A DNA stretch of 64,000 nt from Candidatus Eiseniibacteriota bacterium (GTDB taxonomy: Bacteria; Acidobacteriota; Terriglobia; Acidiferrales; UBA7541): NCBI GenBank assembly GCA_035607085.1, contig DATMZI010000096.1:4227-68226 (forward strand). Direction: 5' to 3'. The notes under the pieces were generated by a model, which saw only the letters and a list, made by a program, of their open reading frames with translations, was not told where the DNA came from and searched no databases. Of this stretch, positions 7,860 through 63,802 are shown in pieces. How positions within the stretch are numbered: the stretch's first letter is position 1; each line of letters begins with the position of its first letter. The translations under genes and the position numbers were made by a program.

Positions 7860-7901
7860 AGACTGGAACCAACGCGCCCCTCCCTCCTCTTATCGTGAGT
7901 C

Positions 7902-8770
7902 GTGGACGAGCAGGGACATTTGGCCGCGGTGCACAGCGCGTTTTACTCCCCGCACATGACCGATCCATGGCCGATGGGAGCGTTGCTGGCGGGAATGCCG
8001 AGCGCGACGTCGAAACCGGCGGGCTTTGTGGCTACGGAGTGGCCATACCACAAGATTCAGCGACCGGGGGAGGCGTTTGGGATGCCGAATGTGGGAGGGG
8101 AGGCGGCGTCGGGCGGCCTGCGCGGAAACATCATGCGGGCTCCGGGGCAGCGGCAGCAGGGTTTTGCGCTCGAAAGGTTCCTGAATGAAGCAGCGGCCGC
8201 GGCCGGGATGGATCCGATTGAATTCCGGATTGCGCACACCACGGATTAAAGGCTGATCGATATTTTGCAGGCGACGGCGAAGGCGGCGCGGTGGGAAGCA
8301 CGCCGAAGGAACTGACTGGGCGAGGCGTGTGCTTCCATCGTGCGGTCCAATGCGTACTCGGTGGGCATTGCGGAAGCAACGGTGGCACCGGCGACCGGTG
8401 CGGGTGACAAAATTCACGATTGGGTGTGAACACGGGAAAATCATCAATCCGCGGCAACTGGAGCGGTGTATGAAGAGCGGGGTGGTGATGGGATTGAGCG
8501 AGGCGCCGAAGGAAGAGGTTACATTTGATCGATCGAAAGTGAGGAGCACCAATTGGAGCCGCTACAAAATTTTGATGATGGAAGAGAAGCCGGAGATTCA
8601 ACTGGTAACGATTTCGCGGGACGATAAGGGATTCGTCGGCGGGTCCGAGGCGGCGAATGCAGTTGTGCCGGGCGGCAGTGGCTGCAGCATCGTTTGAAGC
8701 GACCGGAGTGTGGGCGCGCAGGATACCGCTGACGGCGGGGTATGTGAAGGAGTTGCTGCAGAATGGCTGA
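7902..8770 (+). pseudogene. Degraded 3' fragment of a xanthine dehydrogenase/IorB-like molybdopterin oxidoreductase subunit
   Basis: Pieces MRAPG..Q.GFALERFLNE.A..AGMDPIEFR, TAA stop at 8247, RLIDILQATAKAARWE, then frameshifted VRVTKF..EHGKIINP..GVVMGLSEA..EEVTFD and ..FEATGVWARRIPLT. N-terminal part is missing. Confidence 0.85.
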
Positions 8771-8775
8771 GATGG

Positions 8776-8874
8776 TTACTGGCGGTTGATCCAGCGGCGG
8801 AATACGAAAACCAGGAGGCCGATGCCGAGGATTAGGCCGGCTACGGTGAGTTCGAATTCCATGTAGTAGGACAT
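8776..8874 (-). CDS. Small single-pass membrane protein (32 aa, not in ORF track)
   Basis: Hand translation MSYYMEFELTVAGLILGIGLLVFVFRRWINRQ: one hydrophobic helix followed by RR..R; host-like C-ending codons. Confidence 0.55.
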   Translation of the reverse strand: MSYYMEFELTVAGLILGIGLLVFVFRRWINRQ

Positions 8875-9021
8875 TGGAAGTTTGCCTAGAGGTCTTCAGG
8901 CTAAAACCATTTTTCTTGTGCGGCGTTTGCGCGGCGCTGACACCCCCGCATCCTGAAAACTTTGACGATACCATGCAGCTGGATTCGCATTTCAGCCGAA
9001 CGTGGCCGCTACAAACGCAGG

Positions 9022-10797
9022 CTAGAAACCGCCGCCGCCGCCGCCGCCGAACCCGCCACCAGAGGAACTGCCGCCGCCACCGCTGAAGCCGGATCCGCCG
9101 GAACTGCGTGGAGCGGAGGCGAAGGTGGTGGCGGCCTGCGACGACATGGCGTTGATGTTGTTGACGAACAGGTAGGGGTAAAAGCCGGAACTGAAATTGC
9201 CGCCCTGGTACCAACTGGGCGGTTGGGTGTAGATGTTGGCGAAGGCCTTGCTCCAGTTTTTCTCGACGCCTAGAGCCATGGCGAAGGGCAAGAATTTTTC
9301 GAACATTTCAGGCGTTTTGATCATGCGGTTGAAGCGGTCGGCTTCGACGTGAGTCAGGAAGTCTTCGAAGCCGAGTACGCCTTCGAGGGCGCGGGTGCCG
9401 CTGCCAGTGCGCGCAGGCATGAACCAGCCGAAGCCGCAGACGATAGCGGCGCTGAGGATTCCCGCGATGAAGAACGGCGCGCCGGCCATACCGAGACCGC
9501 GGCCGACGGCGGCGCCTCCCCAGATGGCAAGAAAGCCGATGACGAGGCCGGCGCCGATGTACGTGGCGCGCACAGTGTCGGGACGGTGGAGGTAGTAGCC
9601 GCGGCCGAGAAGTTGTGCGAAGACTTGATTCTTGATGATGGGGATATTTTTGTAGAAGACGTTGTGGAGGTCTTCTATATCCACGACTTCTTCAGGTTGG
9701 CCGACACTGAAGATGCCGTCAAGGAGAGACTGTTCGTGGGGCTTAAGAGAGGACCATTCGGCGCGGCCTTTCTTGAGGATGAAGCTGTAGTCCTGCGATT
9801 TGTATAAGCCCATCATGCGGGATTCGGAGCGTTCCTGGATGACGAGGTAGCCGCGGACAGCCAGGTCCACGATGGCGGCGGTGATGTCGCGCATATCGGC
9901 GGAGTTGTCGACAAGCGTGCCTGCTTCGCTGGGCGTCAGCTGATCGGGCGGTTCGTATTGCGCAGCGATGGGGCGCAGGCGGGGATCGCGGCCGTTGGTG
10001 TACCAGATCCAAAACATGATGGCGGCGATGAGCAAGGGAAGGAGCAGCGGCCAGTTACTGCGGAAGAAGAGAACGGCTTTATCGAAGGCGGTGGGCTCGC
10101 GGAGAGCGCCTTTGTCGAAAGCGATGGCGACGGTGAGGCCGTGATGATAGGGGAGCGGTGCGGAGGTGTGAATTTCAACTCCGTTGCCGGTGATGGAGAG
10201 TTCGGCATCCTGTCCACGCGAGCGATAGGCTCCGGTGGCGAAGTTAGCCCGGAGGTTTTTCGCGGAGGAGGGAAGAGTGATGGTGGCAGAGGCGGAGTTG
10301 ATGGGGACATCCCACTCGTCCCCGGTGACGTTCCAGTAGAACTCATCGAAGTCTTCGTGAAATTTCAATGCGTCGGAGACGGTGTATTCAATGTTGATGG
10401 TCTGGACGGAGTCGTCGGCGTTGTCGATGAAGACTTTGAGTTTGCAGTAGTGGCGTTCGCGAGAGGATTCGTACTTGAGCGGGCGGCCGGCGCCGTCGCT
10501 AATCCGTTTGACGTCGAGAAACAGGGAATAGTTCATGCCTTGCGGGGTGAAGTACTCGACCGGGATTTTGCGGTAGAGGCCGTGCCAGGGACCGCCGAGG
10601 AAATGGGCGGTGATGGATTCAGTGACGGAGACGGTGGAGTCAGGGAGAACGTCGATTTGTGCGTTGAAGCGTTCGATGCGGAGTTCTTTGGCGAGCAGGG
10701 GAAAGGAAAGAAGAAGCAAGGAAGTAATGAGGTAAAGAAAAAAGCGGGCAGGGTCAAGTCGATACGGGCGGAACGATTTCTGTTGCGTTGCGATCAC
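9022..10797 (-). CDS. DUF2207 domain membrane protein
   Basis: Signal peptide, FYWNVTGDEWDVPI, PPDQLTP, AAIVDLAVRGYL, FEKFLPFAMALGV, Gly/Ser-rich tail ending GGGGF. Confidence 0.9.
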   Translation of the reverse strand: MIATQQKSFRPYRLDPARFFLYLITSLLLLSFPLLAKELRIERFNAQIDVLPDSTVSVTESITAHFLGGPWHGLYRKIPVEYFTPQGMNYSLFLDVKRISDGAGRPLKYESSRERHYCKLKVFIDNADDSVQTINIEYTVSDALKFHEDFDEFYWNVTGDEWDVPINSASATITLPSSAKNLRANFATGAYRSRGQDAELSITGNGVEIHTSAPLPYHHGLTVAIAFDKGALREPTAFDKAVLFFRSNWPLLLPLLIAAIMFWIWYTNGRDPRLRPIAAQYEPPDQLTPSEAGTLVDNSADMRDITAAIVDLAVRGYLVIQERSESRMMGLYKSQDYSFILKKGRAEWSSLKPHEQSLLDGIFSVGQPEEVVDIEDLHNVFYKNIPIIKNQVFAQLLGRGYYLHRPDTVRATYIGAGLVIGFLAIWGGAAVGRGLGMAGAPFFIAGILSAAIVCGFGWFMPARTGSGTRALEGVLGFEDFLTHVEADRFNRMIKTPEMFEKFLPFAMALGVEKNWSKAFANIYTQPPSWYQGGNFSSGFYPYLFVNNINAMSSQAATTFASAPRSSGGSGFSGGGGSSSGGGFGGGGGGGF

Positions 10798-53935: not shown

Positions 53936-53968
53936 GCGAAACGGCGGGGAAATAGCTGGTTCTTCTTG

Positions 53969-54664
53969 ATGTTTATCACGGAGATATTCAAATCGGTGCA
54001 GGGAGAAGGGACGCGCGCTGGGCTGCCCTGCGTGTTTGTGCGTTTGACGGGATGCAATTTGCGCTGCACGTGGTGCGATACGGCGTATGCATTCCATGGC
54101 GGGAAGAAGATGAGCGTGGACGAAGTGCTGGCGCGCGTGGATGAGCTGTGTGGACGGCGCGATGGCGTGAGCGGCGCGGCAGCGGATGTGCCGCTAGTGG
54201 AACTGACGGGAGGGGAGCCGCTGCTGCAGGAGGAGATTTATCCGCTGGCGGAGGCGTTGCTGAAGCGTGGCTACACGGTCATGATCGAGACGAGCGGAGA
54301 ACGGTTCGTGGGGCGGCTGCCGAAAGAAGTGATCAAGATTGTGGATGTGAAGTGCCCGGACTCCGGCGAGGCAGATACGTTCAACGAGAAGAACCTGGGA
54401 GCCATAGACGAGAAGGACGAGATTAAATTTGTGCTTTCCACGCGACGGGATTATGAATTTGCGAGAGAGTTTACGCGGGAAAGGGGGCTGGCGAAACTTG
54501 TCAGGCAGGTGCTGTTTGCGCCGGTCTTCGCGGATCCGAACGGGAAATGGGAAGGGCTGGAGCCGCGCCAGCTGGTCGAGTGGATCCTGGCGGACGGATT
54601 GCCAGTGCGGCTGGGGCTGCAACTGCACAAATTTATTTGGCACCCCGCGACGAAGGGCGTTTAA
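53969..54664 (+). CDS. queE: 7-carboxy-7-deazaguanine synthase (radical SAM)
   Basis: EIFKSVQGEG, CNLRCTWCDT, TGGEPLLQ, LQLHK. Confidence 0.96.
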   Translation: MFITEIFKSVQGEGTRAGLPCVFVRLTGCNLRCTWCDTAYAFHGGKKMSVDEVLARVDELCGRRDGVSGAAADVPLVELTGGEPLLQEEIYPLAEALLKRGYTVMIETSGERFVGRLPKEVIKIVDVKCPDSGEADTFNEKNLGAIDEKDEIKFVLSTRRDYEFAREFTRERGLAKLVRQVLFAPVFADPNGKWEGLEPRQLVEWILADGLPVRLGLQLHKFIWHPATKGV

Positions 54665-55268
54665 AGCCCTCTTGGAGGAGATTCTGCCAGGTGCCGTGTG
54701 CGCCGGCTCCGGCTCCTTGGGGAACTGTTTGTCCGGCGGAACCTTCCACGGCGACGGGGCTGGTAAAAATGATCGCGTTGGGAATGATGACTCGCCGTCC
54801 CTCCTTGGTGGTGATCACGGTGGCGCGCGACTGGATGTCGTGGACGGTACCCTCGATGCCGGTGACGCTGATGAAATCGCCGATGCGAAACGGTTCCTGC
54901 ACGAGCAGGAGAATGCCGGCCAGGAAATTCTGCAAAATGTTCTGGAAGGCGAAACCGACAGCCACGCTGCCGATACCGAGAATTTTGATGAGATCGGAAG
55001 CCTGGAACGACGGAGCGATTACGGAAAGACCGACCAGGAAGCCGATCACCACTATGGCCGTGTACACCAGGCGCCCCAAAAGAAGAGCGATGCCTTGATG
55101 TTTGCGGCGCTGGATGGCGAAGCGGCGCACCAACGCACGGCAAATGGATGCCACTAGCAGAAACAGAATGAAGACGAACAGCGCAAGAACCAGATTCGGG
55201 ATCAGGGAAATACATTGGTTAATGATCCGGACTCCGGTTTTCCAGGCCGCGGAAAAGTCGAGAGGCAT
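54633..55268 (-). CDS. mscS: Small mechanosensitive channel protein, C-terminally truncated
   Basis: GIGSVAVGFAFQNILQNFLAG, EPFRIGD.I, GTV.DI..R.T, IPN; cytoplasmic alpha/beta domain absent. Confidence 0.85.
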   Translation of the reverse strand: MPLDFSAAWKTGVRIINQCISLIPNLVLALFVFILFLLVASICRALVRRFAIQRRKHQGIALLLGRLVYTAIVVIGFLVGLSVIAPSFQASDLIKILGIGSVAVGFAFQNILQNFLAGILLLVQEPFRIGDFISVTGIEGTVHDIQSRATVITTKEGRRVIIPNAIIFTSPVAVEGSAGQTVPQGAGAGAHGTWQNLLQEGFKRPSSRGAK

Positions 55269-55389
55269 GCTGTGCCCTCCTGTCTGTGAGGGCGGCATGG
55301 AAAAAGGATAGGCCAACAGCCGGCGGAAGGCCATGCGGGTAATCCCTGAGGTTTTCGGACCGCAGTAGCCAGGCTTATAATTTGTAGCG

Positions 55390-56109
55390 ATGGCGAATAC
55401 GACTCCAAAAGCAGTGGTGCTCCTGAGTGGGGGGATGGATTCGTGCGTGTGCGCGGCGACCGCACGCGAGCGGCACGGAGCGGGTAATGTTGCGTTGTTG
55501 CACGCGAGTTATGGGCAGCGAACCGAAGCCAGGGAAGCGAAAGCATTCGGCGACATCGCGGAGTTTTACAGTGTCAAGCAGCGGCTGATGGTGCAGCTGG
55601 AGCACTTTCGCGCGATTGGTGGATCGGCACTGACGGATCCGAACATCGCGGTTCCGGAAAATGATTTGGGCACACCAGGGCCACAGGGCAGCCTGATTCC
55701 AGTGACGTATGTGCCGTTTCGCAATGCACATTTTCTTTCGGTGGCGGTGAGCTGGGCGGAAGCGATTGGCGCGGCAGCGATTTACATCGGGGCGGTGGCG
55801 CAGGATAGTTCGGGCTATCCGGATTGCCGGCCGGAGTATTACAAAGTGTTTCAGGAGTTAATTCGCGTGGGGACGCGGCCCGAGACCGAGATCGAAATTG
55901 TTACGCCGGTGATTGATCGCAAGAAGAGCGAGATCATCCGTCGGGGCATCGAGCTGGGAGCACCGCTGCATCTGACCTGGTCGTGCTACCAGAATGCCGA
56001 GGAAGCCTGCGGTGTGTGTGATAGCTGCTTGCTGCGGTTACGGGCATTTGAGGAAGCGGGCGTACCCGATCCGATTCCTTATCGGCGCGCGGTATCTGCC
56101 CGGCCCTGA
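55390..56109 (+). CDS. queC: 7-cyano-7-deazaguanine synthase
   Basis: LLSGGMDS, TYVPFRN, YPDCRPEY, TWSCY, CGVCDSCLLR. Confidence 0.97.
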   Translation: MANTTPKAVVLLSGGMDSCVCAATARERHGAGNVALLHASYGQRTEAREAKAFGDIAEFYSVKQRLMVQLEHFRAIGGSALTDPNIAVPENDLGTPGPQGSLIPVTYVPFRNAHFLSVAVSWAEAIGAAAIYIGAVAQDSSGYPDCRPEYYKVFQELIRVGTRPETEIEIVTPVIDRKKSEIIRRGIELGAPLHLTWSCYQNAEEACGVCDSCLLRLRAFEEAGVPDPIPYRRAVSARP

Positions 56110-56280
56110 CGGGCAGTCGCCGTTCGGATGTGGGCACTTGGAATTGCGGGCCGATAGGTGATAATAAGGCCCACACGCAGTCCCCGCAGAGCTTGGGTAG
56201 AAGCTTTGCTTTGGTCTAAACAGGGATGTTCGTGCGGTGGATCAATTCGTGGATGCGTTGGGCTAAAAGGAGAACAAAGC

Positions 56281-57420
56281 ATGAAGAAACTGGCATATTC
56301 GTGCGCATTCGCCGCATTGGTGTTTGCAATGACGGTGGCGGGGCTGGCGCCTCGAGCCGGTGCGCAAGACAGCGGAATCGCCGGAACGATTTTGGATTTG
56401 CAGGCCAATCCGTGGCCGGACCTGGGGGTCACGGTAGTCAGCGACCAGGGAACAAAGTTTGAGGCCAAGACCGATAACAAGGGAAAGTATGAGTTTCACA
56501 ACCTCCGCGCGGGGGTGTACACGCTGACGGTACAACTGCCGAACCAGGTGTTCCAGGGTGGTCAGGTGAAAGTTGGCGCCGGGCAAACGGTGCCGGCCGA
56601 CTTGAATTTTAAAGAAATCGCTGCGAAGAACAATCCGGATTTCGCAAAGCAAGTCGCGAAGCAGGAAGAGGAAAAGCAGAAGTTTCAGGGGATGAAGCAG
56701 CACTTTGACGCGGGCGTGGCGCAGTTGGAACTGGTCAAGCAAGCGAGGGACAAGCTTTCGAAGGCGCCTGCGGATCAGCGCGATGCGGCCAAGCAGGAAG
56801 TGCTGGACAACAGCAACAAAGCGATCACTGAGTTTGAAGCTGCGAAGGCGGCTTCGAATGAAAAGGATCCGAACCTGCAGCTGATCATGGCGCGGCTTGG
56901 AGATGCGTACGATTCGGCGGGCCGGGCCGACGATGCGATCGGCGCGTATAAGCGTGCGATTGAACTGAAACCGTCGTTTGCTTATTACAACAACCTGGGC
57001 GGCATTTATGGTCGCGCGAACAAGATCGATGACGCGACCGCAGCGTATCAAAAGGCTGCCGAGATCGATCCGGCAAATGCATCACAAGCCTGGTTGAATT
57101 GCGGCATTACGCTATCGAACGTGGGAAAGTACAAGGAAGCGATTGAACCGCTGAAGAAAGCGACGGAGCTTGATCCCAAAAGCGCGAAAGCTTGGTATTT
57201 GCTGGCGTCGGCGCAGGTTGCAGACCCGAGCATCTACAAACAGACGGCAGGGAAAATTGAAGTGACCCCGTTGCCGGGAACGGCTGAGGCTTACCAAAAG
57301 GCAATTGATCTGGACCCCAACGGACCGTATGGGCAGCAGGCGAAGCAGGGCTTAGATCAACTGAACCAGATGACCGGCGGCATCAACACGCAGGTGGGAG
57401 CCAAGAAGAAGAAACCTTAA
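56281..57420 (+). CDS. Secreted protein with carboxypeptidase-regulatory-like domain and TPR repeats
   Basis: Signal peptide MKKLAYSC..AGA|QD; GI.GTI.D; TPR motifs (AYYNNLGGIY, KAAEIDP, KATELDP). Confidence 0.85.
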   Translation: MKKLAYSCAFAALVFAMTVAGLAPRAGAQDSGIAGTILDLQANPWPDLGVTVVSDQGTKFEAKTDNKGKYEFHNLRAGVYTLTVQLPNQVFQGGQVKVGAGQTVPADLNFKEIAAKNNPDFAKQVAKQEEEKQKFQGMKQHFDAGVAQLELVKQARDKLSKAPADQRDAAKQEVLDNSNKAITEFEAAKAASNEKDPNLQLIMARLGDAYDSAGRADDAIGAYKRAIELKPSFAYYNNLGGIYGRANKIDDATAAYQKAAEIDPANASQAWLNCGITLSNVGKYKEAIEPLKKATELDPKSAKAWYLLASAQVADPSIYKQTAGKIEVTPLPGTAEAYQKAIDLDPNGPYGQQAKQGLDQLNQMTGGINTQVGAKKKKP

Positions 57421-57443
57421 GCTGTGAGAAGAACCGAAAGAGG

Positions 57444-57469
57444 GGCCGGCACAATCCGCCGGCCTTTTT
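57444..57469 (+). terminator. Intrinsic terminator just upstream of the lasso cluster
   Basis: GGCCGGC-N7-GCCGGCC-TTTTT. Confidence 0.85.
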
Positions 57470-57639
57470 GTTTGTGGTGGAGCATCTCTCCTGCTAACTT
57501 CTGAAAGAAGTGTCGAAGGCGTTTGCCGTAGTCAGAGGCGCGCGAGAACGTTAGAATACGGGGCAGTCGTGGTGGCAATTCCATCGGTTAAGTGGAAGTC
57601 GTCCCAGCCATAGAAAACCAGAAAGGTAAGCGCAGCGCT

Positions 57640-57945
57640 ATGATTTCCTTTTCGGAGCGCGCCGTAGTTCCGTCCCATGTGCTGATTCGCTTTCTGGAGC
57701 AGGAATCGGTGCTGTTGAACCTGGAAACGGAGCGGTACTTTGGGTTGGATGCGGTGGGGACACGGATGTGGCAGGTTGTGACGGCGGCGGCGACGGTAGA
57801 GGCGGCGCTGGCGCAACTGGTGCAAGAATACGACACCTCGCCGGAGACGCTACGCACGGACCTGACCAATTTGCTGCAGCACCTGGTGGAAAACGGATTG
57901 ATTGCGACGCAACCCGCAGATGTGGGCACGGCTTCGTCGGTTTAG
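57640..57945 (+). CDS. PqqD-family RiPP recognition element (lasso B1)
   Basis: ESVLLNLETERYFGLDAVGTRMW..L..EYD..LRTDL..LL..L.ENGLI; adjacent to B2 and C genes. Confidence 0.93.
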   Translation: MISFSERAVVPSHVLIRFLEQESVLLNLETERYFGLDAVGTRMWQVVTAAATVEAALAQLVQEYDTSPETLRTDLTNLLQHLVENGLIATQPADVGTASSV

Positions 57946-58375
57946 CGCGCTGCCGCGCGCTGCGAAGATGGACTTCGTGCGGGCGTCGCTGCTGTTGCCT
58001 CTGATTCGAATGAGCCTGCGTTTGCGCGGATTTCGCGCCACACAAAAATCCTTGCAGTTACGGATTGGACGAGGCGTGGCGGCGTTGTCGGAGTCTGCCG
58101 CGGCTGACGAAACAAAGCAGACGTGCCGAATGGTATTTGCAGCAGCGCGCTATTCGCCGATTTCCGTCACTTGTCTGGAACGATCGCTGGTGTTGTGGTG
58201 GCTGCTGGCGCGACGAGGAATGGCAACGCAGCTCCGCATCGGGGCGCGAAAATCCGGTAAGAAATTTGAAGCGCACGCTTGGTTAGAACAGAATGGCGTG
58301 GCCATAGGCGAGCCTGACGGCACGCACCTGCACTATGCTGCGTTCGAGAAAGAATTCTCCGAGGAAATTTCGTGA
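57920..58375 (+). CDS. Lasso leader peptidase B2 (transglutaminase-like)
   Basis: TCLERSL (Cys), LRIG, FEAHAWLE (His). Confidence 0.93.
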   Translation: MWARLRRFSALPRAAKMDFVRASLLLPLIRMSLRLRGFRATQKSLQLRIGRGVAALSESAAADETKQTCRMVFAAARYSPISVTCLERSLVLWWLLARRGMATQLRIGARKSGKKFEAHAWLEQNGVAIGEPDGTHLHYAAFEKEFSEEIS

Positions 58376-60231
58376 GCGGCTTTGCGGGCATTGTGCGGAT
58401 GGAGCCAACGCTGGACACCGCTGAAGCCGACCGCGCGGCCATCGCGCGCATGGCGGAGGCCATTGCGTTTCGTGGGCCAGACGCTCAGCAGCAGTTCAGC
58501 CGGGACGGGGCATCGTTCGCGTTCTCACTATTGACTACCGGGCCAGCGCCGCAAGCGGCGGAGCAGCCGTTGACGCTGGATGGGGAAACGTTCTTCCTAG
58601 GCGAAGCGCGCGTTGACGGGCGAGGCGAACTAATCGCCAAGTTACAGCAGCACAGTGCCGAGGTCCTACCGTCGAGCGGTGACGAGCAGCTGGTACTCAA
58701 TTTTATTGCTCTCTTTGGTATTGAGTCGCTGCCCCAACTCGACGGCGATTTCAGTTTTGTGTTGTGGAAACCGCGCGAGCGCAGACTATTCGCGTTTCGC
58801 GACCTCAGCGGCTCAAGGCCGTTTTTCTACTCACAGAGTGGCGGCCAACTCGTTTTCAGCAACACGCTACAGGCACTGTTAGTCTCCGGAAACGTCGCTC
58901 GCCGCGACTACGATCAACAGTTCATTGCGAACTTTCTGCTTGGCGCTCCCCATTTCGATGCGGAGAGGACGATCTATCGCGATGTTCGCAGGCTTCCAGC
59001 CGGGAACTTGTTGGACTTTTTTTCCGGCGAAGTTTCTTCGCGCTCCATCGCCAGATACCCGATCGAGGAACTGCTTTCATTCCGGCGGGATGACGAGGTG
59101 CTCGACGAATTTCGGCGGTTGTTTATGCTAGCCGTTCGCGATCGCCTGCCAGAATCGGACACGACGATCCTTTTAAGCGGCGGGCTGGACTCCACCAGCG
59201 TCGCAGCGGCCGCGGTTGCCGAGCGGAAGAGCCAAAACAACCCCAACCTGAAGCTCAACGCTTTTACACTCGATTTCTGTCCGCTGTTTCAGGACGAAGA
59301 AGCCTCACTGGCACAGGATTTTGCAGAGTCTCTCAATCTTCCATTCCAGCTGATTCACTTGGCGCACATTCTTCCGCTGGTCGGTGCGGACGGCGGGCCT
59401 TTCAAGCTGCCCGAGCCATGCGATTATCCTTACCCGGGACTTCAACAGTTTTACGTTTCGCGCTTTCGTCCGGATTCGCGGGTTGTGTTGAGCGGAGATG
59501 GTGGAGACGAAATTATGAGAGCGGAGGGCGCACCGTTCCTCCGCGATCTGAGTTCGCGCTTCGGCAAGGCTCGTGCGGCGATGGTGGTATTGGATTACAT
59601 ATTCTCGCGCCGGCGCCTGCCGGCATTGGGAGCCGGACTGCGCATCCGCTTTTTGCGGCTGATCGGAAAAGGCGCGCAGCTTCCCACTTTCCCGACATGG
59701 ATCGAACCTGCGTTTGAGAGGCAATTTGAGCTCCGCAAGCGATTTCTCGAACTTACGGAAAAGCCTTCGTCCGCCCATCCCTGGCATCCCTGGTCGTACG
59801 CCAAACTCGTTCGCTTCATTCCGCCGCTAATGGAAGGGCAAGATGCCATGTTTAGCGGCCGCCCGCTTGAGGTACGTGCCCCATTTCTCGACCGGCGCCT
59901 GATCCGATTCCTGCTTTGCCTGCCGCCCATTCCCTGGTACATGGAAAAGGAGTTACTTCGGCGAGCACAGCGCGGCGTCCTGCCGGATGAAATTCGTCTT
60001 CGGCCGAAAGTGCCGCTCCAGCACGATCCCCTTGAGTTGCACGTTGCTGCGGGAAAGTGGTCTCCGAGCGCACCGGACGTGTGCCCACCTGCTCTCCGAG
60101 GCATGATTGACTGGCCACGCCTGCAGCATTCCTTGACAATCGCCCACGGTACCGAGTTATATGTACATCTGTGCCCGGTCCTGCTAGCTCTCTGGCTAAA
60201 CGCTGTTGAAAAGAGCGATTGGATTCAGTAG
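58372..60231 (+). CDS. Lasso cyclase (asparagine-synthetase-like, protein C)
   Basis: MSGFAG (Ntn Cys replaced by Ser), RGPD, RD.SG.RP, LSGGLDS, SGDGGDE, PFLDRRL, RPK; GTGA overlap with B2. Confidence 0.93.
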   Translation: MSGFAGIVRMEPTLDTAEADRAAIARMAEAIAFRGPDAQQQFSRDGASFAFSLLTTGPAPQAAEQPLTLDGETFFLGEARVDGRGELIAKLQQHSAEVLPSSGDEQLVLNFIALFGIESLPQLDGDFSFVLWKPRERRLFAFRDLSGSRPFFYSQSGGQLVFSNTLQALLVSGNVARRDYDQQFIANFLLGAPHFDAERTIYRDVRRLPAGNLLDFFSGEVSSRSIARYPIEELLSFRRDDEVLDEFRRLFMLAVRDRLPESDTTILLSGGLDSTSVAAAAVAERKSQNNPNLKLNAFTLDFCPLFQDEEASLAQDFAESLNLPFQLIHLAHILPLVGADGGPFKLPEPCDYPYPGLQQFYVSRFRPDSRVVLSGDGGDEIMRAEGAPFLRDLSSRFGKARAAMVVLDYIFSRRRLPALGAGLRIRFLRLIGKGAQLPTFPTWIEPAFERQFELRKRFLELTEKPSSAHPWHPWSYAKLVRFIPPLMEGQDAMFSGRPLEVRAPFLDRRLIRFLLCLPPIPWYMEKELLRRAQRGVLPDEIRLRPKVPLQHDPLELHVAAGKWSPSAPDVCPPALRGMIDWPRLQHSLTIAHGTELYVHLCPVLLALWLNAVEKSDWIQ

Positions 60232-60251
60232 AGTCGAAACAGGAGATTTCC

Positions 60252-60392
60252 ATGAAGCCACCGGCGGAAGTCGCACCGAAAAAGAACTACGTGCCGCCGC
60301 AATTATTGAAGTACGGAACTCTAACCGAAATGACCGCGGCCGCCGGCAAAGGGGCTCATGCGGACGCGTCGAAGGGAAAAAGCAAGACCTAA
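60252..60392 (+). CDS. Lasso peptide precursor A (46 aa, not in ORF track)
   Basis: SD AGGAG; MKPPAEVAPKKNYVPPQLLKYGTLTEMTA-AAGKGAHADASKGKSKT; YxxPxL leader motif, Thr at -2, Asp at +9. Confidence 0.92.
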   Translation: MKPPAEVAPKKNYVPPQLLKYGTLTEMTAAAGKGAHADASKGKSKT

Positions 60393-60426
60393 GACTCCGC
60401 GTCCGACCTGTGAATATCCCCATACG

Positions 60427-61431
60427 ATGGACTATTGGGCCTATGGCTTAAGTATTACTTCAAATGTGGAAATACCGGCCTTCGGAACTTTCACAAGCTT
60501 AGGGACTTTCGATATCAGTTTCCAAATGGGTCCGGCTCCAAGCTGGGCCGATGAGGCCTCTTCCGATCGCGGCGAAGTTGTTTATTCACCTTCCTTGCCG
60601 GCGCGGACCGACTCAAAACTGACGATTACCCGGCTGCTCTCTGGAAAATTCCTGGAACTCCGTTATGACGACGGGACCCGGTTCATTATGGATGGAGGAG
60701 CAAAGTCGATATGGGCTGAAGAAGGCCCCGGCCTGAGCCGCGACGACGTCTTCACCTATCTCGTTGGTCCTATCATGGGCTTTGTTTTACGGCGCCGGGA
60801 AAAACTGGCGCTCCACGCAAGCTCGGTTATTGTCGATGACATGGCAATTGCAATCTGTGGAGAAGCTGGATCGGGCAAATCAACGACTGCTGCAGCGCTT
60901 GCTCTCCGGGGCAATCAGGTGTTATGCGAAGACATTTGTGCCTTGCAGAATTTGTATGGGCACAAATATGTGTTGCCCGCTTACCCGAGAATCAGCTTGT
61001 GGCCAGATTCGGCGAGCCGCCTGTTCTCTTCCGCCGATGTCTTGCCGCTGGTCGCCAAAGGGTGGGATAAGCGGTATCTCCAGCTCGATGGGCAGCGGGC
61101 TGGCTTTAGCAACAGTCCGGCACCGCTCGGTGCGATCTATTTGCTGGCTGCGCGTTCGGATGCGCGGACCGCGCCATCTATTGAGCGGCTATCGCAGAGA
61201 GAAGCGGCGCTGGCCCTTGTGCAAAACACATATATGAATTACCTTTTGACGAAAAAGCAGCGTGCCGCCGAATTTTACACAATAGCCAGTTTGGTGAGCG
61301 AAGTGGATTGCTACTGCATCACTCCTCACGCCGATCCCGCGCGCATCCGGGACTTGGCGTTACTGGTAGAGGCGCACGCGACTAATTTTATATCCGGGCT
61401 GAAATCTTCCTCCGCCCACTTAGTGCCCTGA
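60427..61431 (+). CDS. HPr kinase-like lasso peptide kinase
   Basis: LHAS, Walker A GEAGSGKST, CED; directly after the precursor. Confidence 0.85.
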   Translation: MDYWAYGLSITSNVEIPAFGTFTSLGTFDISFQMGPAPSWADEASSDRGEVVYSPSLPARTDSKLTITRLLSGKFLELRYDDGTRFIMDGGAKSIWAEEGPGLSRDDVFTYLVGPIMGFVLRRREKLALHASSVIVDDMAIAICGEAGSGKSTTAAALALRGNQVLCEDICALQNLYGHKYVLPAYPRISLWPDSASRLFSSADVLPLVAKGWDKRYLQLDGQRAGFSNSPAPLGAIYLLAARSDARTAPSIERLSQREAALALVQNTYMNYLLTKKQRAAEFYTIASLVSEVDCYCITPHADPARIRDLALLVEAHATNFISGLKSSSAHLVP

Positions 61432-62570
61432 TGTACAGCCTTGAGCAGTTCGCCAACATGTTCTCCGACCCGCTGCGCATGGACGCTTATCGCGGCGCGA
61501 TTGCCAAATACGTTCAGCCCGGCAACGTGGTCGTGGATCTTGGCTGCGGTCCCGGTGTTTTTGCTCTTCTCGCTTGCAAAGCCGGCGCTCGCCGGGTGTA
61601 CGCGATCGACCTGAATGGCATCGTGGATTTCGGCCGGCATTTGGCTGCGGCGAATGGCATGGCCGACCGCATCCATTTCCTGTGTGGAGATTCTCGGCAA
61701 ATTCATTTACCAGAACGCGCGGACGTGATTGTCTCGGACGTAAGGGGAGCATTGCCCCTTCACTCTCATGCCATCGAAACCATCGAAGACGCGCGCGAAC
61801 GTTTCCTGGCCCCGGGCGGCCGACTGCTTCCCTCAAGTGACACGTTGGTGTGCGCCCTGGTCGAGAATGAAAAGACGTACCGGGAAATCTGCGATGCTTG
61901 GAAGTCCCTTCCTCAACTGGATCTTTCTGCTGGTCTTCCGCTGGCATTGAACAGCATCTATAGCGAAAAACTCGAGCCCGACAATCTAATTTCGAGCCCT
62001 GCACCATGGCTTAAGCTTGACTACACGGTCGGCGCCAAAACTCACGTGTCGGGGCAATTACATCTCACCGCGTCCAGGGACGCAACAGGTCATGGGCTTG
62101 GTATGTGGTTTGAAACACAGCTCGGCGACGGATTTGGTTACTCCACGGCCCCGGGAAACGGCGATCGCGTTTATGGTCACAGATTCCTGCCATGGCTTGA
62201 ACCGGTTCGGCTGCGCAAGGGAGACGTTTGCTCGGTGACGTTGGGCGCCCACTTTGTCGGAGGCAATTACATTTGGCAATGGGAGATACAGATGCCGGCC
62301 ACGGCTAATCGAGCGCCGGTGCACATGCGGCAATCCACGTTTTACGGGGGCGTTTTGTCCCCCTCCTATCTCAAAAAGCATTCTAGTGATTTCGTACCAG
62401 TGCTCACGGAAACTGGGCTCGCTGAATCCTGGCTGTTTCAAGCTATCGATGGCAGGCGTTCGCTGGAAGAGATTGCCCGCGCGGCCACGAAAGCCTTTCC
62501 GCAAGTGTTTCGCCGCGTCGAAGACGCCTACAGCCGAGCCGCTGAAATCGCCGAAAGATTTTCCCGCTGA
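61431..62570 (+). CDS. PRMT-fold class I SAM methyltransferase with C-terminal PqqD/RRE-like helical domain
   Basis: D.LR..AY, VVDLGCGPG, ADVIVSD, LAPGGRLLP, beta-barrel HGLGMWFE; tail LTETG..W..IDGRRSLEEIA; TGATG coupling. Confidence 0.85.
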   Translation: MYSLEQFANMFSDPLRMDAYRGAIAKYVQPGNVVVDLGCGPGVFALLACKAGARRVYAIDLNGIVDFGRHLAAANGMADRIHFLCGDSRQIHLPERADVIVSDVRGALPLHSHAIETIEDARERFLAPGGRLLPSSDTLVCALVENEKTYREICDAWKSLPQLDLSAGLPLALNSIYSEKLEPDNLISSPAPWLKLDYTVGAKTHVSGQLHLTASRDATGHGLGMWFETQLGDGFGYSTAPGNGDRVYGHRFLPWLEPVRLRKGDVCSVTLGAHFVGGNYIWQWEIQMPATANRAPVHMRQSTFYGGVLSPSYLKKHSSDFVPVLTETGLAESWLFQAIDGRRSLEEIARAATKAFPQVFRRVEDAYSRAAEIAERFSR

Positions 62571-62626
62571 TGTTGCTCGCCGCGCTTCTCGCGTAGACTG
62601 GGAGCCTCGCTGCGAGGAGCACTTTT

Positions 62627-63802
62627 CTGCCGTCTCTGTTTCCACCTGCTAGCAATTTAACCGCTAATTGGCGGCTCCTGCTTGCCGCTTGTTCAGTCCC
62701 TCATGACGCCGCAAGGATTGCGGCTCTCGCGCTGGAGAATGAAGGAGTTGATGCCTTGCTGGATCTTGCTGGCGCACACGGAGTCATTCCTCACTTGGCT
62801 CGCGTGGTGGGTCAGACAGATTCCAACTCTTTGCCCTCCGCACTAGTGGAGGCGGTTCGCGCACCATGGAAGCGCCAGTTGCTTAAGTCCATGTCCTTGA
62901 CAGCAGAGCTGTTCCGTGTGGCTGCGCTCCTAGAGCAAGCGCCAATCGCGTTTTTGGTGACGAAAGGACCGGCGCTCGCGGCTCGCGCCTACGGCGACGT
63001 TGTTGCCAGACAGTACCGAGACTTCGACTTGTTGATCGGCCACGCCGATATTTTTCAGGCGGCGAAACTTCTGACTAGTGCAGGTTACGCGTCAGATACA
63101 AGTCTGAAAGCGTCGCAGTCCGGGCGTGTTCCCGGAGAATATATCTTTCAAAAACCCGAGACGGATCTGATCTTCGAGCTGCATACCGAACGGAGCTTCC
63201 GCTACTATCCGCGCCCGTTGCCCATCGAGGACTTCTTTCTTCGCAAAACGATTGTCTTAATGGATGGGCGCCCCGTGCCGGCCCTCTCGCTTGAGGATGA
63301 ATTCGTCCTGATTTCCATCCACGGCGCAAAGCATTTTTGGGAACGCCTGATGTGGATTTCGGATGTGGCCGCCCTGGTGCATCGCCATCCGGAACTCGAT
63401 TGGAGTCGCGTCCGCCAGTCCGCGGCCGATGTCGGCGCGGAGCGCATGGTCCGCGTGGCGTTGTTGCTGGCCGAGCGAGTGTTGCGGGTGCCGATTCCAA
63501 ACGAAATGAAAAAGGAGGTCGCCGCCGATTCGGCCTGCCTGTCTATCGTTAAAAAAATTGAAACGTGGCTGCCTTATGCTGGCCAGCAACCGCCTCAATT
63601 GATGCAACGCGCGCTTTTTCGTTTCCGCATGCGCGGGCAATTGGTCGACGGGGCCCGTTATCTTACGCGTCTGTCGCTGTCGCCCACGGAAGAAGACTGG
63701 TCAGCCGATGCAGAATCTGCCGAAGCCCCGTGGCGCGAAGCTCTCAGCCGGCCGTTTCGCCTGGCCAAGAAATATCGCCGCGATTCGAAGGGGCCGCACT
63801 AA
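62627..63802 (+). CDS. Nucleotidyltransferase family protein (NTP_transf_5-like), proposed CTG start
   Basis: KGPALA..YGD..R.Y.DFDLL, ELH, HGAKH.W.RL.W..D; SD GAGGAG 7 nt before CTG 62627. Confidence 0.85.
   Translation: MPSLFPPASNLTANWRLLLAACSVPHDAARIAALALENEGVDALLDLAGAHGVIPHLARVVGQTDSNSLPSALVEAVRAPWKRQLLKSMSLTAELFRVAALLEQAPIAFLVTKGPALAARAYGDVVARQYRDFDLLIGHADIFQAAKLLTSAGYASDTSLKASQSGRVPGEYIFQKPETDLIFELHTERSFRYYPRPLPIEDFFLRKTIVLMDGRPVPALSLEDEFVLISIHGAKHFWERLMWISDVAALVHRHPELDWSRVRQSAADVGAERMVRVALLLAERVLRVPIPNEMKKEVAADSACLSIVKKIETWLPYAGQQPPQLMQRALFRFRMRGQLVDGARYLTRLSLSPTEEDWSADAESAEAPWREALSRPFRLAKKYRRDSKGPH

What the first reader, a model, noticed from the sequence alone, without database searches (positions are those of the whole stretch)
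57640..63802. Complete lasso-peptide gene cluster with a kinase + PRMT-fold methyltransferase + nucleotidyltransferase tailoring set
Seen: seven co-oriented, mostly overlapping genes in the order B1(RRE)-B2-C-A-kinase-methyltransferase-nucleotidyltransferase. Established: B1/B2/C/A define lasso biosynthesis. HPr-like kinases and nucleotidyltransferases occur in Firmicutes paeninodin/pseudomycoidin-type clusters, and the lasso methyltransferases I know are C-terminal O-methyltransferases or PIMT-like aspartimide formers. Inference: a PRMT-fold enzyme together with kinase and NTase, in a probable Acidobacteriota host, points to a triply modified lasso class that I do not recognise as described.
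Basis: partly seen in the sequence, partly recalled or inferred. Interest (0 to 1): 0.92.

Follow-up and report, generated by a model that had tools for sequence, protein, structure and literature searches.

The report
Lasso-peptide cluster with PRMT-like methyltransferase
This is a real, intact gene cluster for a small knotted ("lasso") peptide in a soil Acidobacteriota-type bacterium; besides a kinase and a nucleotidyltransferase of kinds already known for lasso peptides, it carries a methyltransferase built like eukaryotic arginine methyltransferases, which I could not find characterised and which probably methylates lysines of the peptide.

Summary
Window 57640-63802 (+) holds seven co-oriented, tightly packed genes: B1 (PqqD/RRE), B2 (lasso protease), C (Asn-synthetase-like cyclase), A (46-aa precursor), K (HPr-kinase-like), M (PRMT-like methyltransferase) and N (PF14907 nucleotidyltransferase).

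- **Precursor:** YxxPxL leader, Thr-2, core AAGKGAHADASKGKSKT, predicted Ala1-Asp9 ring, 1565.827 Da.
- **M:** a true PRMT homologue (profile E 9e-59 to PRMT6; Foldseek E about 1e-28). It lacks the second Glu of the double-E loop and the THW loop. It carries an about 80-aa helical C-terminal tail found only in this enzyme family.
- **Distribution:** the B1-B2-C-A-K-M(-N) layout recurs in about a third of the genus and in 18 of 228 sampled genera of the phylum.
- **What is known:** K+N is a known pairing (pseudomycoidin, the Bradymonas bsf cluster). I found no description of M.
- **New here:** sister clusters that lost M (two independent losses) have Arg-rich, Met-poor cores (K11:R33). M-containing clusters have Lys-rich cores (K46:R11). 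This points to Lys N-methylation, most likely Lys16 next to the phospho-acceptor Thr17.
- **Other:** N starts at a CTG codon, and the cluster has no exporter.

Verdict: an uncharacterised variant of a known kind, not unique to this genome.

The parts
57439..57469 (+). Terminator-like hairpin plus T-run after the upstream TPR gene; marks the 5' boundary of the cluster's transcription unit
   Evidence: 12-bp stem, 7 GC pairs. Consensus match only.
57529..57557 (+). Sigma-70-like promoter candidate upstream of B1
   Evidence: 9 of 12 matches. The number of such sites is not above the shuffle expectation, so this is a weak call.
57640..57945 (+). B1: PqqD-like RiPP recognition element (101 aa)
   Evidence: PF05402 E 6e-17; NCBIfam lasso_PqqD models are the best hits; called as a 101-aa gene in relatives.
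57920..58375 (+). B2: transglutaminase-like lasso leader peptidase (151 aa from the ATG; 157 aa if it starts at TTG 57902)
   Evidence: PF13471 E 5.5e-23; NF033537 lasso_biosyn_B2 84.8 bits against a cut-off of 33. Cys (TCLERS) and His (AHAWLE) are present. Relatives are 151 aa.
58372..60231 (+). C: ATP-dependent Asn-synthetase-like lasso cyclase (619 aa)
   Evidence: PF00733 E 7.5e-31 and GATase_7; NF033535 lasso cyclase E 1.7e-57, below that model's high cut-off. SGGLDS at residue 269.
60252..60338 (+). A, leader part (29 aa): MKPPAEVAPKKNYVPPQLLKYGTLTEMTA with YxxPxL at -17 to -12 and Thr at -2
   Evidence: Homologous precursors sit at the same position in all related clusters. NF033528 lasso_cyano gives a weak hit, E 6.6e-5.
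60339..60392 (+). A, core part (17 aa plus stop): AAGKGAHADASKGKSKT. Predicted Ala1-Asp9 macrolactam with an 8-residue tail; S-K-T at the C-terminus.
   Evidence: Read from the sequence. Asp9 is the only acidic residue. Mass 1565.827 Da. A 97%-identical variant of this gene lies on a soil metatranscriptome contig.
60427..61431 (+). K: HPr-kinase-like lasso precursor kinase (334 aa)
   Evidence: Hpr_kinase_C E 1e-4 and TIGR04352 E 3e-11, both sub-threshold. H130, G145, G148, G150, K151, S152, E168 and D169 have the spacing of the BsfK catalytic motif and are conserved in 27 homologues: six positions invariant, +18 Gly in 26 of 27, +38 Glu or Asp (PMC10368454).
61431..62315 (+). M, catalytic part (residues 1-295): PRMT-like Rossmann domain plus beta-barrel
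   Evidence: Profile against PDB: PRMT6 E 9e-59. AF2 model pLDDT 82.8. Foldseek to PRMT6, PRMT1 and CARM1 E about 1e-28, TM 0.66-0.72. PF22528 PRMT_C. D103 replaces the first Glu of the double-E loop, S112 replaces the second, and V-Y-G replaces THW.
62316..62570 (+). M, C-terminal tail (residues 296-379): disordered linker, invariant VPxL, then a three-helix bundle; a family-specific domain
   Evidence: AF2. The tail profile finds 605 representative proteins, the listed matches lying at or near the C-terminus of about 380-aa enzymes or of shorter, probably truncated, proteins, with one 740-aa multi-stretch exception. Resemblance to PqqD/RRE is sub-threshold in three tests. M-like hits without the tail are not in lasso context.
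62615..62619 (+). AGGAG ribosome-binding site for N
   Evidence: It lies 7 nt upstream of CTG 62627. The same AGGAG(7-8 nt)CTG arrangement is kept in relatives L051 and L053, although their reading frame relative to M differs.
62627..63802 (+). N: PF14907 'uncharacterised nucleotidyltransferase' (391 aa from the CTG start), PsmN-like
   Evidence: PF14907 E 7.5e-46. The conserved N-terminal segment (W-x-L-L-L-x-x-C) is in frame upstream of the first canonical start codon. The DxD motif is at D132/D134, against PsmN D134/D136 (PMC6993621). Relatives are 390-400 aa.

Best explanation
The stretch is a functional operon for a class II (disulfide-free) lasso peptide.

**Proposed pathway**
1. B1 binds the YxxPxL leader of the 46-aa precursor.
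2. While the peptide is still linear, kinase K phosphorylates the hydroxyl of the conserved C-terminal [S/T]-[K/R]-[S/T] motif. Here that is most likely Thr17; Ser15 is the alternative.
3. The PRMT-derived methyltransferase M transfers methyl groups from SAM to the epsilon-amino group of one or more core lysines. The prime candidate is Lys16, next to the phospho-site.
4. B2 cuts after Ala-1, and C closes the Ala1-Asp9 isopeptide ring around the tail.
5. N, a PsmN-type enzyme, puts a hexose or a nucleotidyl group on the phosphate.

**Why the modifications matter**
The tail ASKGKSKT has no bulky residue. The phospho(glycosyl) group and the methyl-lysine(s) probably supply the steric and cationic plug that holds the thread. 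Arg does this job in sister clusters that lost M.

**Status of each step**
- Shown: gene identities, intact catalytic motifs, conservation of the gene set, and the PRMT fold with an altered active site.
- Inferred: every chemical step, the order of the steps and the acceptor residues.
For: **Core genes and motifs**
- Family hits and catalytic motifs are intact.
These features are conserved in relatives.

**Conservation of the layout**
- The order B1-B2-C-A-K-M-N sits in the same genomic slot (QueC-TPR ... MBL-rhodanese) in metagenome relatives with 64-88% M identity.
- The same order is found in other species of the genus.
- B1-B2-C-A-K-M-(ABC)-N occurs in other genera of the phylum.
- K and M are adjacent in most of the loci that hold both (separated by inserted genes in L035 and L036 and placed divergently in L041 and L043). 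Here their stop and start codons overlap.

**Kinase and N**
- The kinase motif matches the mutationally validated BsfK motif in spacing and is conserved in 27 homologues (six positions invariant, +18 G/A, +38 E/D) (PMC10368454).
- N has DxD at the PsmN positions. PsmN adds hexoses to the phospho-Ser of pseudomycoidin, and the authors propose that these act as a lock (PMC6993621).

**M**
- M is a PRMT homologue.
- It lacks the Arg-clamping second Glu and the THW loop. The precursor contains no Arg at all.

**Lysine as acceptor**
- Ten clusters in the same genus lack M, through two independent losses on the kinase tree.
- Their cores have K:R = 11:33, against 46:11 in 19 M-containing cores.
- The residue next to the conserved Thr/Ser includes Lys in 15 of 17 M-containing tree rows. 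In the M-less rows it is Arg in 9 of 10.
- The [K/R]-[S/T] motif itself is present with and without M. It therefore belongs to K and N, not to M.

**Expression**
- A soil metatranscriptome contig covers exactly the precursor gene of a 97%-identical variant.
Against: - There are no chemical data, so all modifications are inferred.
- The K-versus-R contrast rests on only two independent M-loss events. The Fisher test is not corrected for phylogeny.
- Two type-1 M-containing cores (L031, L034) have no Lys at all; they have 4 and 2 Met. One M-containing cluster (G019) has Arg-Arg beside the Thr. Lys therefore cannot be the universal acceptor.
- In the own clade an Arg (R105) sits in the loop that binds the cationic substrate in PRMTs. 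That would suit an anionic acceptor better.
- I know of no PRMT-fold enzyme shown to methylate lysine.
- The kinase's characterised relatives act on a C-terminal Ser or on Ser3, not on Thr.
- The cluster has no exporter, immunity gene or isopeptidase.
- N lacks a canonical start codon.
- The RRE nature of the M tail, and hence any dependence on the leader, is not established.
Confidence: 0.5

Rival explanations
1. The lasso pathway is the same, but M is an O-methyltransferase for an anionic group. It would methylate the phosphate that K installs on Thr17/Ser15, giving a methyl phosphodiester, or the C-terminal carboxylate.
For: - K and M always co-occur, are usually adjacent and are translationally coupled here.
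- The only chemical groups common to all M-containing cores are the C-terminal carboxylate and a kinase-installed phosphate. L031 has no Lys, Arg or His.
- The own clade has replaced PRMT's SEWMG with SD(V/I/L)RG, placing an Arg (R105) in the substrate loop, and has lost the second Glu.
- Another agent of this scan raised the same idea for a relative. That is not independent evidence.
Against: - This reading does not predict the Lys-to-Arg and Met-depletion shifts seen when M is lost.
- PRMT ancestry points to N-methylation.
- D103, the acid that contacts the substrate nitrogen in PRMTs, is retained.
- K-only and K+N clusters work without M, so the phosphate does not need capping.
Confidence: 0.2
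2. M builds fixed cationic, bulky side chains on either Lys (N-methylation) or Met (S-methylation to a sulfonium), depending on the precursor. In this genome only Lys is available.
For: - Met is 14-fold enriched in M-containing cores: 24 of 370 residues against 1 of 210.
- Every type-1 M-containing core has Lys or Met, and the two Lys-free ones have 2-4 Met.
- Lys and Met interchange at the same tail position (GKSKT here, GMSKT in the transcribed variant, GMRKT/GMKT in relatives).
- A Met sulfonium at a plug position exists in the lasso peptide longipeptin A (PMC10664482).
Against: - Dual N/S specificity in one active site is unprecedented.
- LopH, the presumed longipeptin enzyme, is not PRMT-like.
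- Six M-containing cores, including this one, have no Met.
- The Met enrichment could be a lineage effect.
Confidence: 0.12
3. M does not modify the lasso peptide. It is a self-protection or regulatory enzyme, for example one that methylates a cellular target protein of the peptide, in the manner of PrmA-type ribosomal protein methyltransferases.
For: - The best Pfam hit by E-value is PrmA, and some database records call homologues 'L11 methyltransferase'.
- The cluster has no other immunity or export gene.
Against: - The PrmA hit covers only the generic SAM-binding part; the whole protein is PRMT-like.
- M sits between K and N inside the operon.
- Its special tail occurs only in lasso-linked enzymes.
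- Core composition co-varies with the presence of M.
Confidence: 0.06
4. The cluster in this genome is silent or decaying: no exporter, N without a canonical start codon. It would make no mature product.
For: - The ABC exporter present between M and N, or upstream of B1, in relatives is missing here.
- N has no ATG, GTG or TTG upstream of its conserved N-terminus.
- Decay does happen in the genus. G009 keeps only a B1'::M-tail remnant plus N, and the C and K genes of G003 are frameshifted.
Against: - All seven frames are open with their catalytic motifs intact.
- The SD+CTG start of N is conserved in relatives.
- The exporter-less layout is kept at 64-88% M identity, so it is under selection.
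- RNA evidence exists for a near-identical precursor gene.
Confidence: 0.1

Closest known systems
Pseudomycoidin cluster of Bacillus pseudomycoides DSM 12442 (psmA, C, K, B1, B2, N, D; PMC6993621)
   Same: - Split-B lasso core.
- HPr-kinase-like PsmK plus the PF14907-type 'uncharacterised NTP transferase' PsmN, with a catalytic DxD at nearly the same residue numbers (D134/D136 against D132/D134).
- The modification is concentrated at the C-terminal hydroxyl residue.
- A tail that needs the modification to stay threaded.
   Different: - It has no methyltransferase.
- Its acceptor is a C-terminal Ser, against Thr here.
- It has an ABC exporter, PsmD; none is present here.
- The gene order differs.
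- It comes from Bacillota, not Acidobacteriota.
bsf cluster of Bradymonas sediminis FA350 (bsfA, B1, B2, C, D, K, N; PMC10368454)
   Same: - A Gram-negative split-B lasso cluster with K and N.
- The kinase motif H-G-G-G-K-S-D-D has identical spacing.
- B1 stimulates phosphorylation of the linear precursor.
   Different: - BsfK acts on Ser3 of the core; here position 3 is Gly.
- The leader has Ile at -2; here it is Thr.
- It has no methyltransferase.
- It has an ABC exporter.
Paeninodin-type phosphorylated lasso peptides (PadeK, ThcoK, SyanK; reviewed in PMC9266682 and PMC8498205)
   Same: - An HPr-kinase homologue phosphorylates the precursor before leader removal.
- The Ala1-Asp9 nine-membered ring (from my recollection of paeninodin).
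   Different: - The acceptor is a strictly C-terminal Ser.
- These clusters have no M.
- Not all of them have N.
Eukaryotic type I protein arginine methyltransferases (PRMT6, PRMT1, CARM1)
   Same: - The same two-domain fold.
- The D-x-x-R N-terminal helix, motif I and the first acidic residue of the double-E loop are kept.
- Profile E 9e-59 and TM 0.66-0.72.
   Different: - The second Glu is Ser112.
- THW is replaced by V-Y-G.
- An Arg sits in the SEWMG-equivalent loop.
- There is an extra about 80-aa helical tail.
- The apparent substrate has no arginine.
- The setting is a bacterial RiPP operon.
Characterised lasso methyltransferases: StspM/LasF (C-terminal carboxyl O-MT) and TceM/LihM (PIMT-like, aspartimide-forming)
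   Same: SAM-dependent tailoring of a lasso peptide or its precursor.
   Different: These are unrelated families. M gave no O-MT or PCMT family hit, and the core has no conserved Asp6-Thr7 aspartimide site.

Membership tests
Lasso peptide biosynthetic gene cluster (split-B type) | PqqD-like RRE (B1) | tested here: met
   PF05402 E 6e-17, 62.2 bits against a cut-off of 23.4.
Lasso peptide biosynthetic gene cluster (split-B type) | Transglutaminase-like Cys protease (B2) | tested here: met
   NF033537 84.8 bits against a cut-off of 33. Cys and His are present.
Lasso peptide biosynthetic gene cluster (split-B type) | Asn-synthetase-like ATP-dependent macrolactam synthetase (C) | tested here: met
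   PF00733 108.5 bits against a cut-off of 21. The lasso cyclase model is the best NCBIfam hit, although below its own high cut-off. SGGLDS is present.
Lasso peptide biosynthetic gene cluster (split-B type) | Short precursor with a YxxPxL leader, Thr at -2, a small residue at core position 1 and Asp/Glu at positions 7-9 | tested here: met
   YVPPQL, T-2, A1 and D9. The pattern is conserved in more than 30 related precursors.
Lasso peptide biosynthetic gene cluster (split-B type) | The product has a threaded lariat topology | not testable with these tools
   This needs isolation plus MS/NMR or carboxypeptidase and heat assays.
Phosphorylated / phosphoglycosylated lasso peptides (paeninodin, pseudomycoidin, bsf) | HPr-kinase-like kinase with the H...G..G.GKS...DD motif | tested here: met
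   H130, G145, G148, G150, K151, S152, E168 and D169. Six positions invariant in 27 homologues; +18 is Gly in 26 of 27 and +38 is Glu or Asp. The motif is taken from PMC10368454.
Phosphorylated / phosphoglycosylated lasso peptides (paeninodin, pseudomycoidin, bsf) | Acceptor is the C-terminal Ser (pade, thco, syan, psm) or Ser3 (bsf) | tested here: not met
   The core ends in Thr and position 3 is Gly. In relatives the conserved Thr/Ser lies 0-3 residues from the end.
Phosphorylated / phosphoglycosylated lasso peptides (paeninodin, pseudomycoidin, bsf) | PF14907-type nucleotidyltransferase with catalytic DxD | tested here: met
   PF14907 157 bits against a cut-off of 31.2. D132-F-D134.
Phosphorylated / phosphoglycosylated lasso peptides (paeninodin, pseudomycoidin, bsf) | Dedicated ABC exporter (D) | tested here: not met
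   No transporter lies between the upstream terminator at 57439 and 9 kb downstream. One is present in relatives L031, L036, L037, L057 and L058.
Protein arginine methyltransferases (type I PRMT) | Rossmann SAM domain plus PRMT beta-barrel | tested here: met
   hmmsearch E 9e-59 to PRMT6 over residues 4-269. Foldseek E 1.6e-28. PF22528 27.8 bits against a cut-off of 27.
Protein arginine methyltransferases (type I PRMT) | Double-E loop (two Glu that clamp the guanidinium) | tested here: not met
   D103 replaces the first Glu and S112 the second. The second position is variable across the family. Only the distant clade L041/L043 keeps SE..G....EE.
Protein arginine methyltransferases (type I PRMT) | THW loop | tested here: not met
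   It aligns to V247-Y248-G249.
Protein arginine methyltransferases (type I PRMT) | Arginine substrate | tested here: not met
   The 46-aa precursor has no Arg in either leader or core. The enzymatic substrate itself is not testable here.
RiPP recognition element (PqqD-like) as the identity of the M tail | Significant sequence or profile similarity to PF05402 or to lasso B1 proteins | tested here: not met
   Pfam E 0.15. hhalign against 19 B1 sequences gives E 0.037 over 23 columns. The best 150 of 605 tail-profile hits are about 380-aa enzymes with the tail at their C-terminus or shorter, probably truncated, proteins; none was checked for being a PqqD protein.
RiPP recognition element (PqqD-like) as the identity of the M tail | Winged-helix fold with a three-stranded sheet that pairs with the leader | tested here: inconclusive
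   AF2 gives three helices and no sheet. Foldseek hits to PqqD 3g2b (E 2.3, TM 0.46) and to the FusB1-leader complex 6jx3 (TM 0.48, rmsd 1.7 over 48 columns) are not significant.
Known lasso methyltransferases (StspM/LasF O-MT; TceM/LihM PIMT) | Membership of the O-methyltransferase (mitomycin-7-O-MT-like) or PCMT/PIMT families | tested here: not met
   Neither family appears among the 11 Pfam or 26 NCBIfam hits of M.

The most novel reading that the evidence does not exclude
The PRMT fold has been repurposed in bacteria as a RiPP tailoring enzyme that methylates lysine, and in Met-bearing relatives perhaps methionine. On an otherwise plug-less lasso tail it would make a permanently cationic, bulky residue directly beside a phospho(glycosyl)-threonine. 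Lineages that lost the enzyme compensated by replacing Lys with Arg.

If true, this would be the first N-methyl-lysine lasso peptide, the first PRMT-type enzyme in RiPP biosynthesis and a PRMT relative with non-arginine specificity.
Probability: 0.35. Interest if true: 0.8.

Novelty: new variant of a known kind. Interest (0 to 1): 0.62.

Why it matters
Lasso peptides are prized scaffolds, and each new tailoring enzyme widens what can be built on them.

- **A new enzyme type:** a PRMT-derived, kinase-linked methyltransferase would add side-chain N-methylation to lasso chemistry. In RiPPs, lysine N-methylation is so far reported only for fungal epichloecyclins (PMC11285071).
- **A natural experiment:** the enzyme shows how the arginine methyltransferase active site can be re-specified.
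- **A large, untouched family:** 605 representative clusters hold the tail domain. The family occurs in about 5% of sampled Acidobacteriota genomes and is present in many soil and rhizosphere metagenomes. Products from this hard-to-culture phylum are almost unknown.
- **A concrete prediction:** the Lys/Arg switch between clusters with and without M gives a cheap, testable guess at the acceptor site.

Tried and rejected
1. **Is the M tail an RRE?** All four tests were sub-threshold or negative: Pfam on the tail alone (E 0.15); hhalign of 64 tails against 19 B1s (E 0.037); AF2 of the tail plus Foldseek (no hit at E <= 0.001); and a tail-profile search of 1.84 billion proteins. I therefore do not call it an RRE.
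2. **A 'standalone' homologue of the tail in G009** turned out to be a deletion remnant that fuses the start of B1 to the end of M. It is not an independent RRE.
3. **The search for related loci in genome contigs** with M alone returned only two distant, tail-less relatives outside lasso context. The useful loci came from the genome search and the fetch from genomes.
4. **A universal acceptor residue.** I looked for one conserved in all M-containing cores and found none. Lys, Arg, His, Met and tail Ser/Thr each fail in at least one cluster.
5. **An attenuator hairpin between A and K.** The fold is no better than shuffled sequence (z 0.12).
6. **Promoter-like sites** are not more frequent than in shuffles.
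7. **The orphan M copy in G035 (L020)** is flanked by IS transposases and says nothing about function.
9. **Taxonomy look-up** of 'Candidatus Acidoferrum' found no entry.

Full report
**1. What is there**

Between a terminator-like hairpin after an upstream TPR gene (57439-57469) and a convergent MBL-rhodanese gene (stop at 63799) lie seven genes on the + strand.

| Gene | Coordinates | Evidence |
|---|---|---|
| B1 | 57640-57945 | PqqD, E 6e-17 |
| B2 | 57920-58375 | Transglut_core3; NCBIfam lasso B2 above its cut-off |
| C | 58372-60231 | Asn_synthase plus GATase; best NCBIfam hit 'lasso peptide isopeptide bond-forming cyclase'; SGGLDS present |
| A | 60252-60392 | 46-aa precursor |
| K | 60427-61431 | HPr-kinase-like |
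| M | 61431-62570 | PRMT-like methyltransferase |
| N | ends 63802 | PF14907 nucleotidyltransferase |

The genes overlap or are separated by at most 34 nt. The exception is the M-N spacer.

The precursor reads MKPPAEVAPKKNYVPPQLLKYGTLTEMTA|AAGKGAHADASKGKSKT. It has YxxPxL at -17 to -12 and Thr at -2. Asp9 is the only acidic residue of the core. A nine-membered Ala1-Asp9 ring with an eight-residue tail is therefore the only canonical solution.

**2. The start of N**

The first canonical start codon (TTG 62756) would cut off about 43 residues that are conserved in homologues (W-x-L-L-L-x-x-C-x-x-P).

Upstream, in frame, the only plausible start is CTG 62627, which lies 7 nt behind AGGAG (62615-62619). 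The same AGGAG-spacer-CTG arrangement is kept in two relatives, even though a 1-nt indel puts their N frame in a different register relative to M.

From the CTG, N is 391 aa, and homologues are 390-400 aa. Its DxD is then D132/D134. In PsmN the catalytic pair shown by mutation is D134/D136 (PMC6993621).

**3. The kinase**

Family scores are weak (Hpr_kinase_C E 1e-4, TIGR04352 E 3e-11). The catalytic signature reported and mutated for BsfK is H148-G163-G166-G168-K169-S170-D186-D187 (PMC10368454). It is reproduced here with identical spacing as H130-G145-G148-G150-K151-S152-E168-D169. Six of the eight positions are invariant in 27 homologues; +18 is Gly in 26 of 27 and +38 alternates between Glu and Asp.

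**4. The methyltransferase**

- A profile of 22 family members matches PRMT6, PRMT2, PRMT1, PRMT8, PRMT3 and CARM1, with E 9e-59 to 1e-45, over residues 4-277.
- The AF2 model (pLDDT 82.8, pTM 0.72) superposes on PRMT6, PRMT1 and CARM1 with Foldseek E about 1e-28 and TM 0.66-0.72.
- Conserved PRMT features: the N-terminal D13-x-x-R16 helix, motif I, the first acidic loop residue (D103) and the 'W...G.D.S' segment.
- Not conserved: the second Glu of the double-E loop (Ser112 here, variable elsewhere) and the THW loop (V-Y-G here).
- In this clade PRMT's SEWMG reads SD(V/I/L)RG.

Three active-site types exist in the phylum. Type 1 is this one. Type 2 reads TDQxGRFGFE. Type 3 reads SETIGNYGAEE, still has two Glu, and is found with Arg-only cores.

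Residues 296-379 form a linker (pLDDT below 50) with an invariant VPxL, followed by a three-helix bundle.

**5. Is the tail an RRE?**

It looks like the helical half of PqqD, but every test stayed below significance:
- Pfam E 0.15.
- hhalign against the B1 proteins, E 0.037.
- Foldseek to PqqD 3g2b, E 2.3, and to the FusB1-leader complex, TM 0.48.

No beta-sheet is predicted.

A tail-only profile searched against 1.84 billion representative proteins found 605 hits. The listed matches lie at or near the C-terminus of proteins of about 372-393 aa or of shorter, probably truncated, ones, with one 740-aa multi-stretch exception.

M-like proteins without the tail are not in lasso context (L001, L028, L029, L046, L047, L049). 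The tail is therefore a lasso-specific adaptor of unknown partner. Leader binding remains a hypothesis.

**6. Conservation**

- In the same genus, 12 of 36 other genomes have a full-length M (E <= 1e-90) and two more hold fragments or partial matches.
- B1-B2-C-A-K-M-N in the same order is seen in G019 and G036. It is also seen in G003, where it is decayed, and partially in G028. Six further genomes have B1-B2-C-A-K-M with N elsewhere or absent.
- Metagenome contigs with 64-88% identical M show the identical seven genes in the identical neighbourhood: QueC, TPR | cluster | MBL-rhodanese, PilT-like, PDZ, DUF4097.
- Across the phylum, 21 of 401 genomes (18 of 228 genera) have M at E <= 1e-40. 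Nearly every full-length copy lies beside lasso B1/B2/C and K.
- Distant members carry an ABC exporter between M and N (L031, L036, L037). Nearer ones carry a divergent ABC-2 pair upstream of B1. The window has neither.
- Near-identical DNA is present in at least 24 soil and rhizosphere metagenome runs from 2012-2025.
- A 240-nt contig of a soil metatranscriptome covers just the precursor gene of a 97%-identical variant, with core AAGKGVHGDASKGMSKT.

**7. What the precursors say**

In this genus all K-containing clusters share a C-terminal [S/T]-[K/R]-[S/T]-x(0-3) motif. Here it is S15-K16-T17.

A kinase search found homologues in 24 of the 37 genomes of the genus, more than hold M. For ten K-bearing loci from nine of those genomes M is absent; in four the order is B1-B2-C-A-K-N, with only 210-250 nt between K and N.

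On a kinase tree M is ancestral and was lost twice. Because the terminal motif is present with and without M, it belongs to K and N.

| Feature | M-containing | M-less |
|---|---|---|
| Lys : Arg in cores | 46 : 11 (19 cores) | 11 : 33 (10 cores) |
| Met | 24 of 370 residues | 1 of 210 residues |
| Residue beside the conserved Thr/Ser | includes Lys in 15 of 17 tree rows | Arg in 9 of 10 |

Uncorrected Fisher tests give p 2e-8 for Lys versus Arg and p 2e-4 for Met.

This is only two independent contrasts, so it is a lead and not a proof. It is, however, what one expects if M methylates lysine and a methylated Lys does the job that Arg does elsewhere.

Against a simple rule:
- Two type-1 M-containing cores have no Lys, though they have 2-4 Met.
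- One M-containing cluster has Arg-Arg beside the Thr.

**8. Mechanism proposed**

- K phosphorylates Thr17 (or Ser15) of the linear precursor, assisted by B1 as shown for BsfK (PMC10368454).
- M methylates Lys16, and possibly Lys4, Lys12 and Lys14.
- B2 and C mature the lasso.
- N decorates the phosphate as PsmN does, with hexose or via a nucleotidyl step (PMC6993621).

The tail has no aromatic or Arg plug. The pseudomycoidin authors proposed that the phospho-hexose acts as a lock and showed that the unmodified product is not threaded. Longipeptin's S-methyl-Met sits at a plug position (PMC10664482).

My odds for the methyl acceptor, given that M acts on the peptide:

| Acceptor | Odds |
|---|---|
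| Lys N-methylation | about 0.55 |
| Phosphate or carboxylate O-methylation | about 0.2 |
| Mixed Lys/Met | about 0.12 |
| Other | the rest |

**9. Literature**

The held library of open-access papers and preprints knows the following lasso modifications: phosphorylation, phospho-glycosylation, C-terminal O-methylation, PIMT-type aspartimide, acetylation, citrullination, hydroxylation, epimerisation, biaryl links, a Met sulfonium and glycosylation (PMC9266682, PMC8498205, PMC10664482, PMC11912497).

- No paper that I could find describes a PRMT-like enzyme in a lasso or any other RiPP cluster.
- The 2024 review of RiPP methyltransferases mentions none.
- Subscription journals are not covered, so this is absence in what I could search.
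- Earlier notes of this scan report the same K+M+N module in at least 31 other genomes of several phyla, also without a characterised member. Those are unchecked AI notes and not independent support.

**10. Verdict**

This is a real, intact lasso cluster. K and N are known kinds, and M is an uncharacterised, widespread tailoring enzyme. I class it as a new variant of a known kind.

The wider test of the Lys/Arg correlation therefore could not be done.

Noticed in passing
L050 (G009:C63) 7880-8155, syntenic with window 57640-62570: In a congener the same genomic slot (QueD-QueE-QueC-TPR ... PDZ-DUF4097-TonB) holds only a 91-aa ORF plus an intact N gene. The ORF fuses the start of B1 to the last about 55 residues of M. 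A single internal deletion has therefore removed B2, C, A, K and most of M.
   Followed up: yes
window 62570-62627: N has no ATG, GTG or TTG upstream of its conserved N-terminus. It seems to start at CTG 62627 behind AGGAG. An ATG overlapping the stop codon of M (TGATG) opens a 9-codon ORF, ML(L/V)AALLA*, that is conserved in relatives L051 and L053. Its meaning (reinitiation or coupling?) is unknown.
   Followed up: partly
window 60217-60432: A soil metatranscriptome run (X26) holds a 240-nt contig that covers just the precursor gene of a 97%-identical strain. The differences give L18S in the leader and A6V, A8G and K14M in the core. The K14M change produces the GM-x-K-T tail seen in other species.
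   Followed up: partly
L031 10031-11992, L036 10111-11928, L037 9703-11544; L057 310-2012, L058 23-1695: Relatives carry exporters that the window lacks. In other genera a full-length ABC (TMD plus NBD) gene lies between M and N. In nearer relatives a divergent ABC-2 permease/ATPase pair lies upstream of B1.
   Followed up: yes
L019 (G003:C1) 5492-8486: The homologous cluster in G003 has C and K broken into several frames, and its precursor has no ring-forming Asp. This is a decaying copy.
   Followed up: partly
L020 (G035:C2) 8770-9912: An orphan full-length M copy lies among IS (DDE, ISL3) transposases and an FkbM-type methyltransferase, 68 kb from a complete cluster on the same contig.
   Followed up: yes
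L036 (G076:C48) 3045-8866: This cluster has two precursor genes. Between K and M it carries a PhyH-type dioxygenase and an IS200-like transposase. The dioxygenase may be an additional hydroxylase tailoring step.
   Followed up: no
L034 12354; L058 4487 and 4841: One relative has Val at leader position -2, the Ile/Val(-2) type discussed in PMC10368454. Another encodes two different precursors in one cluster, one with a T-R-T tail and the other with an S-K-T tail.
   Followed up: no
window 53966-57420: Upstream of the cluster are the queuosine genes QueE and QueC, an MscS-like channel on the - strand and a CarboxypepD_reg-TPR protein. These are conserved neighbours in all close relatives and are apparently unrelated to the cluster.
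   Followed up: partly
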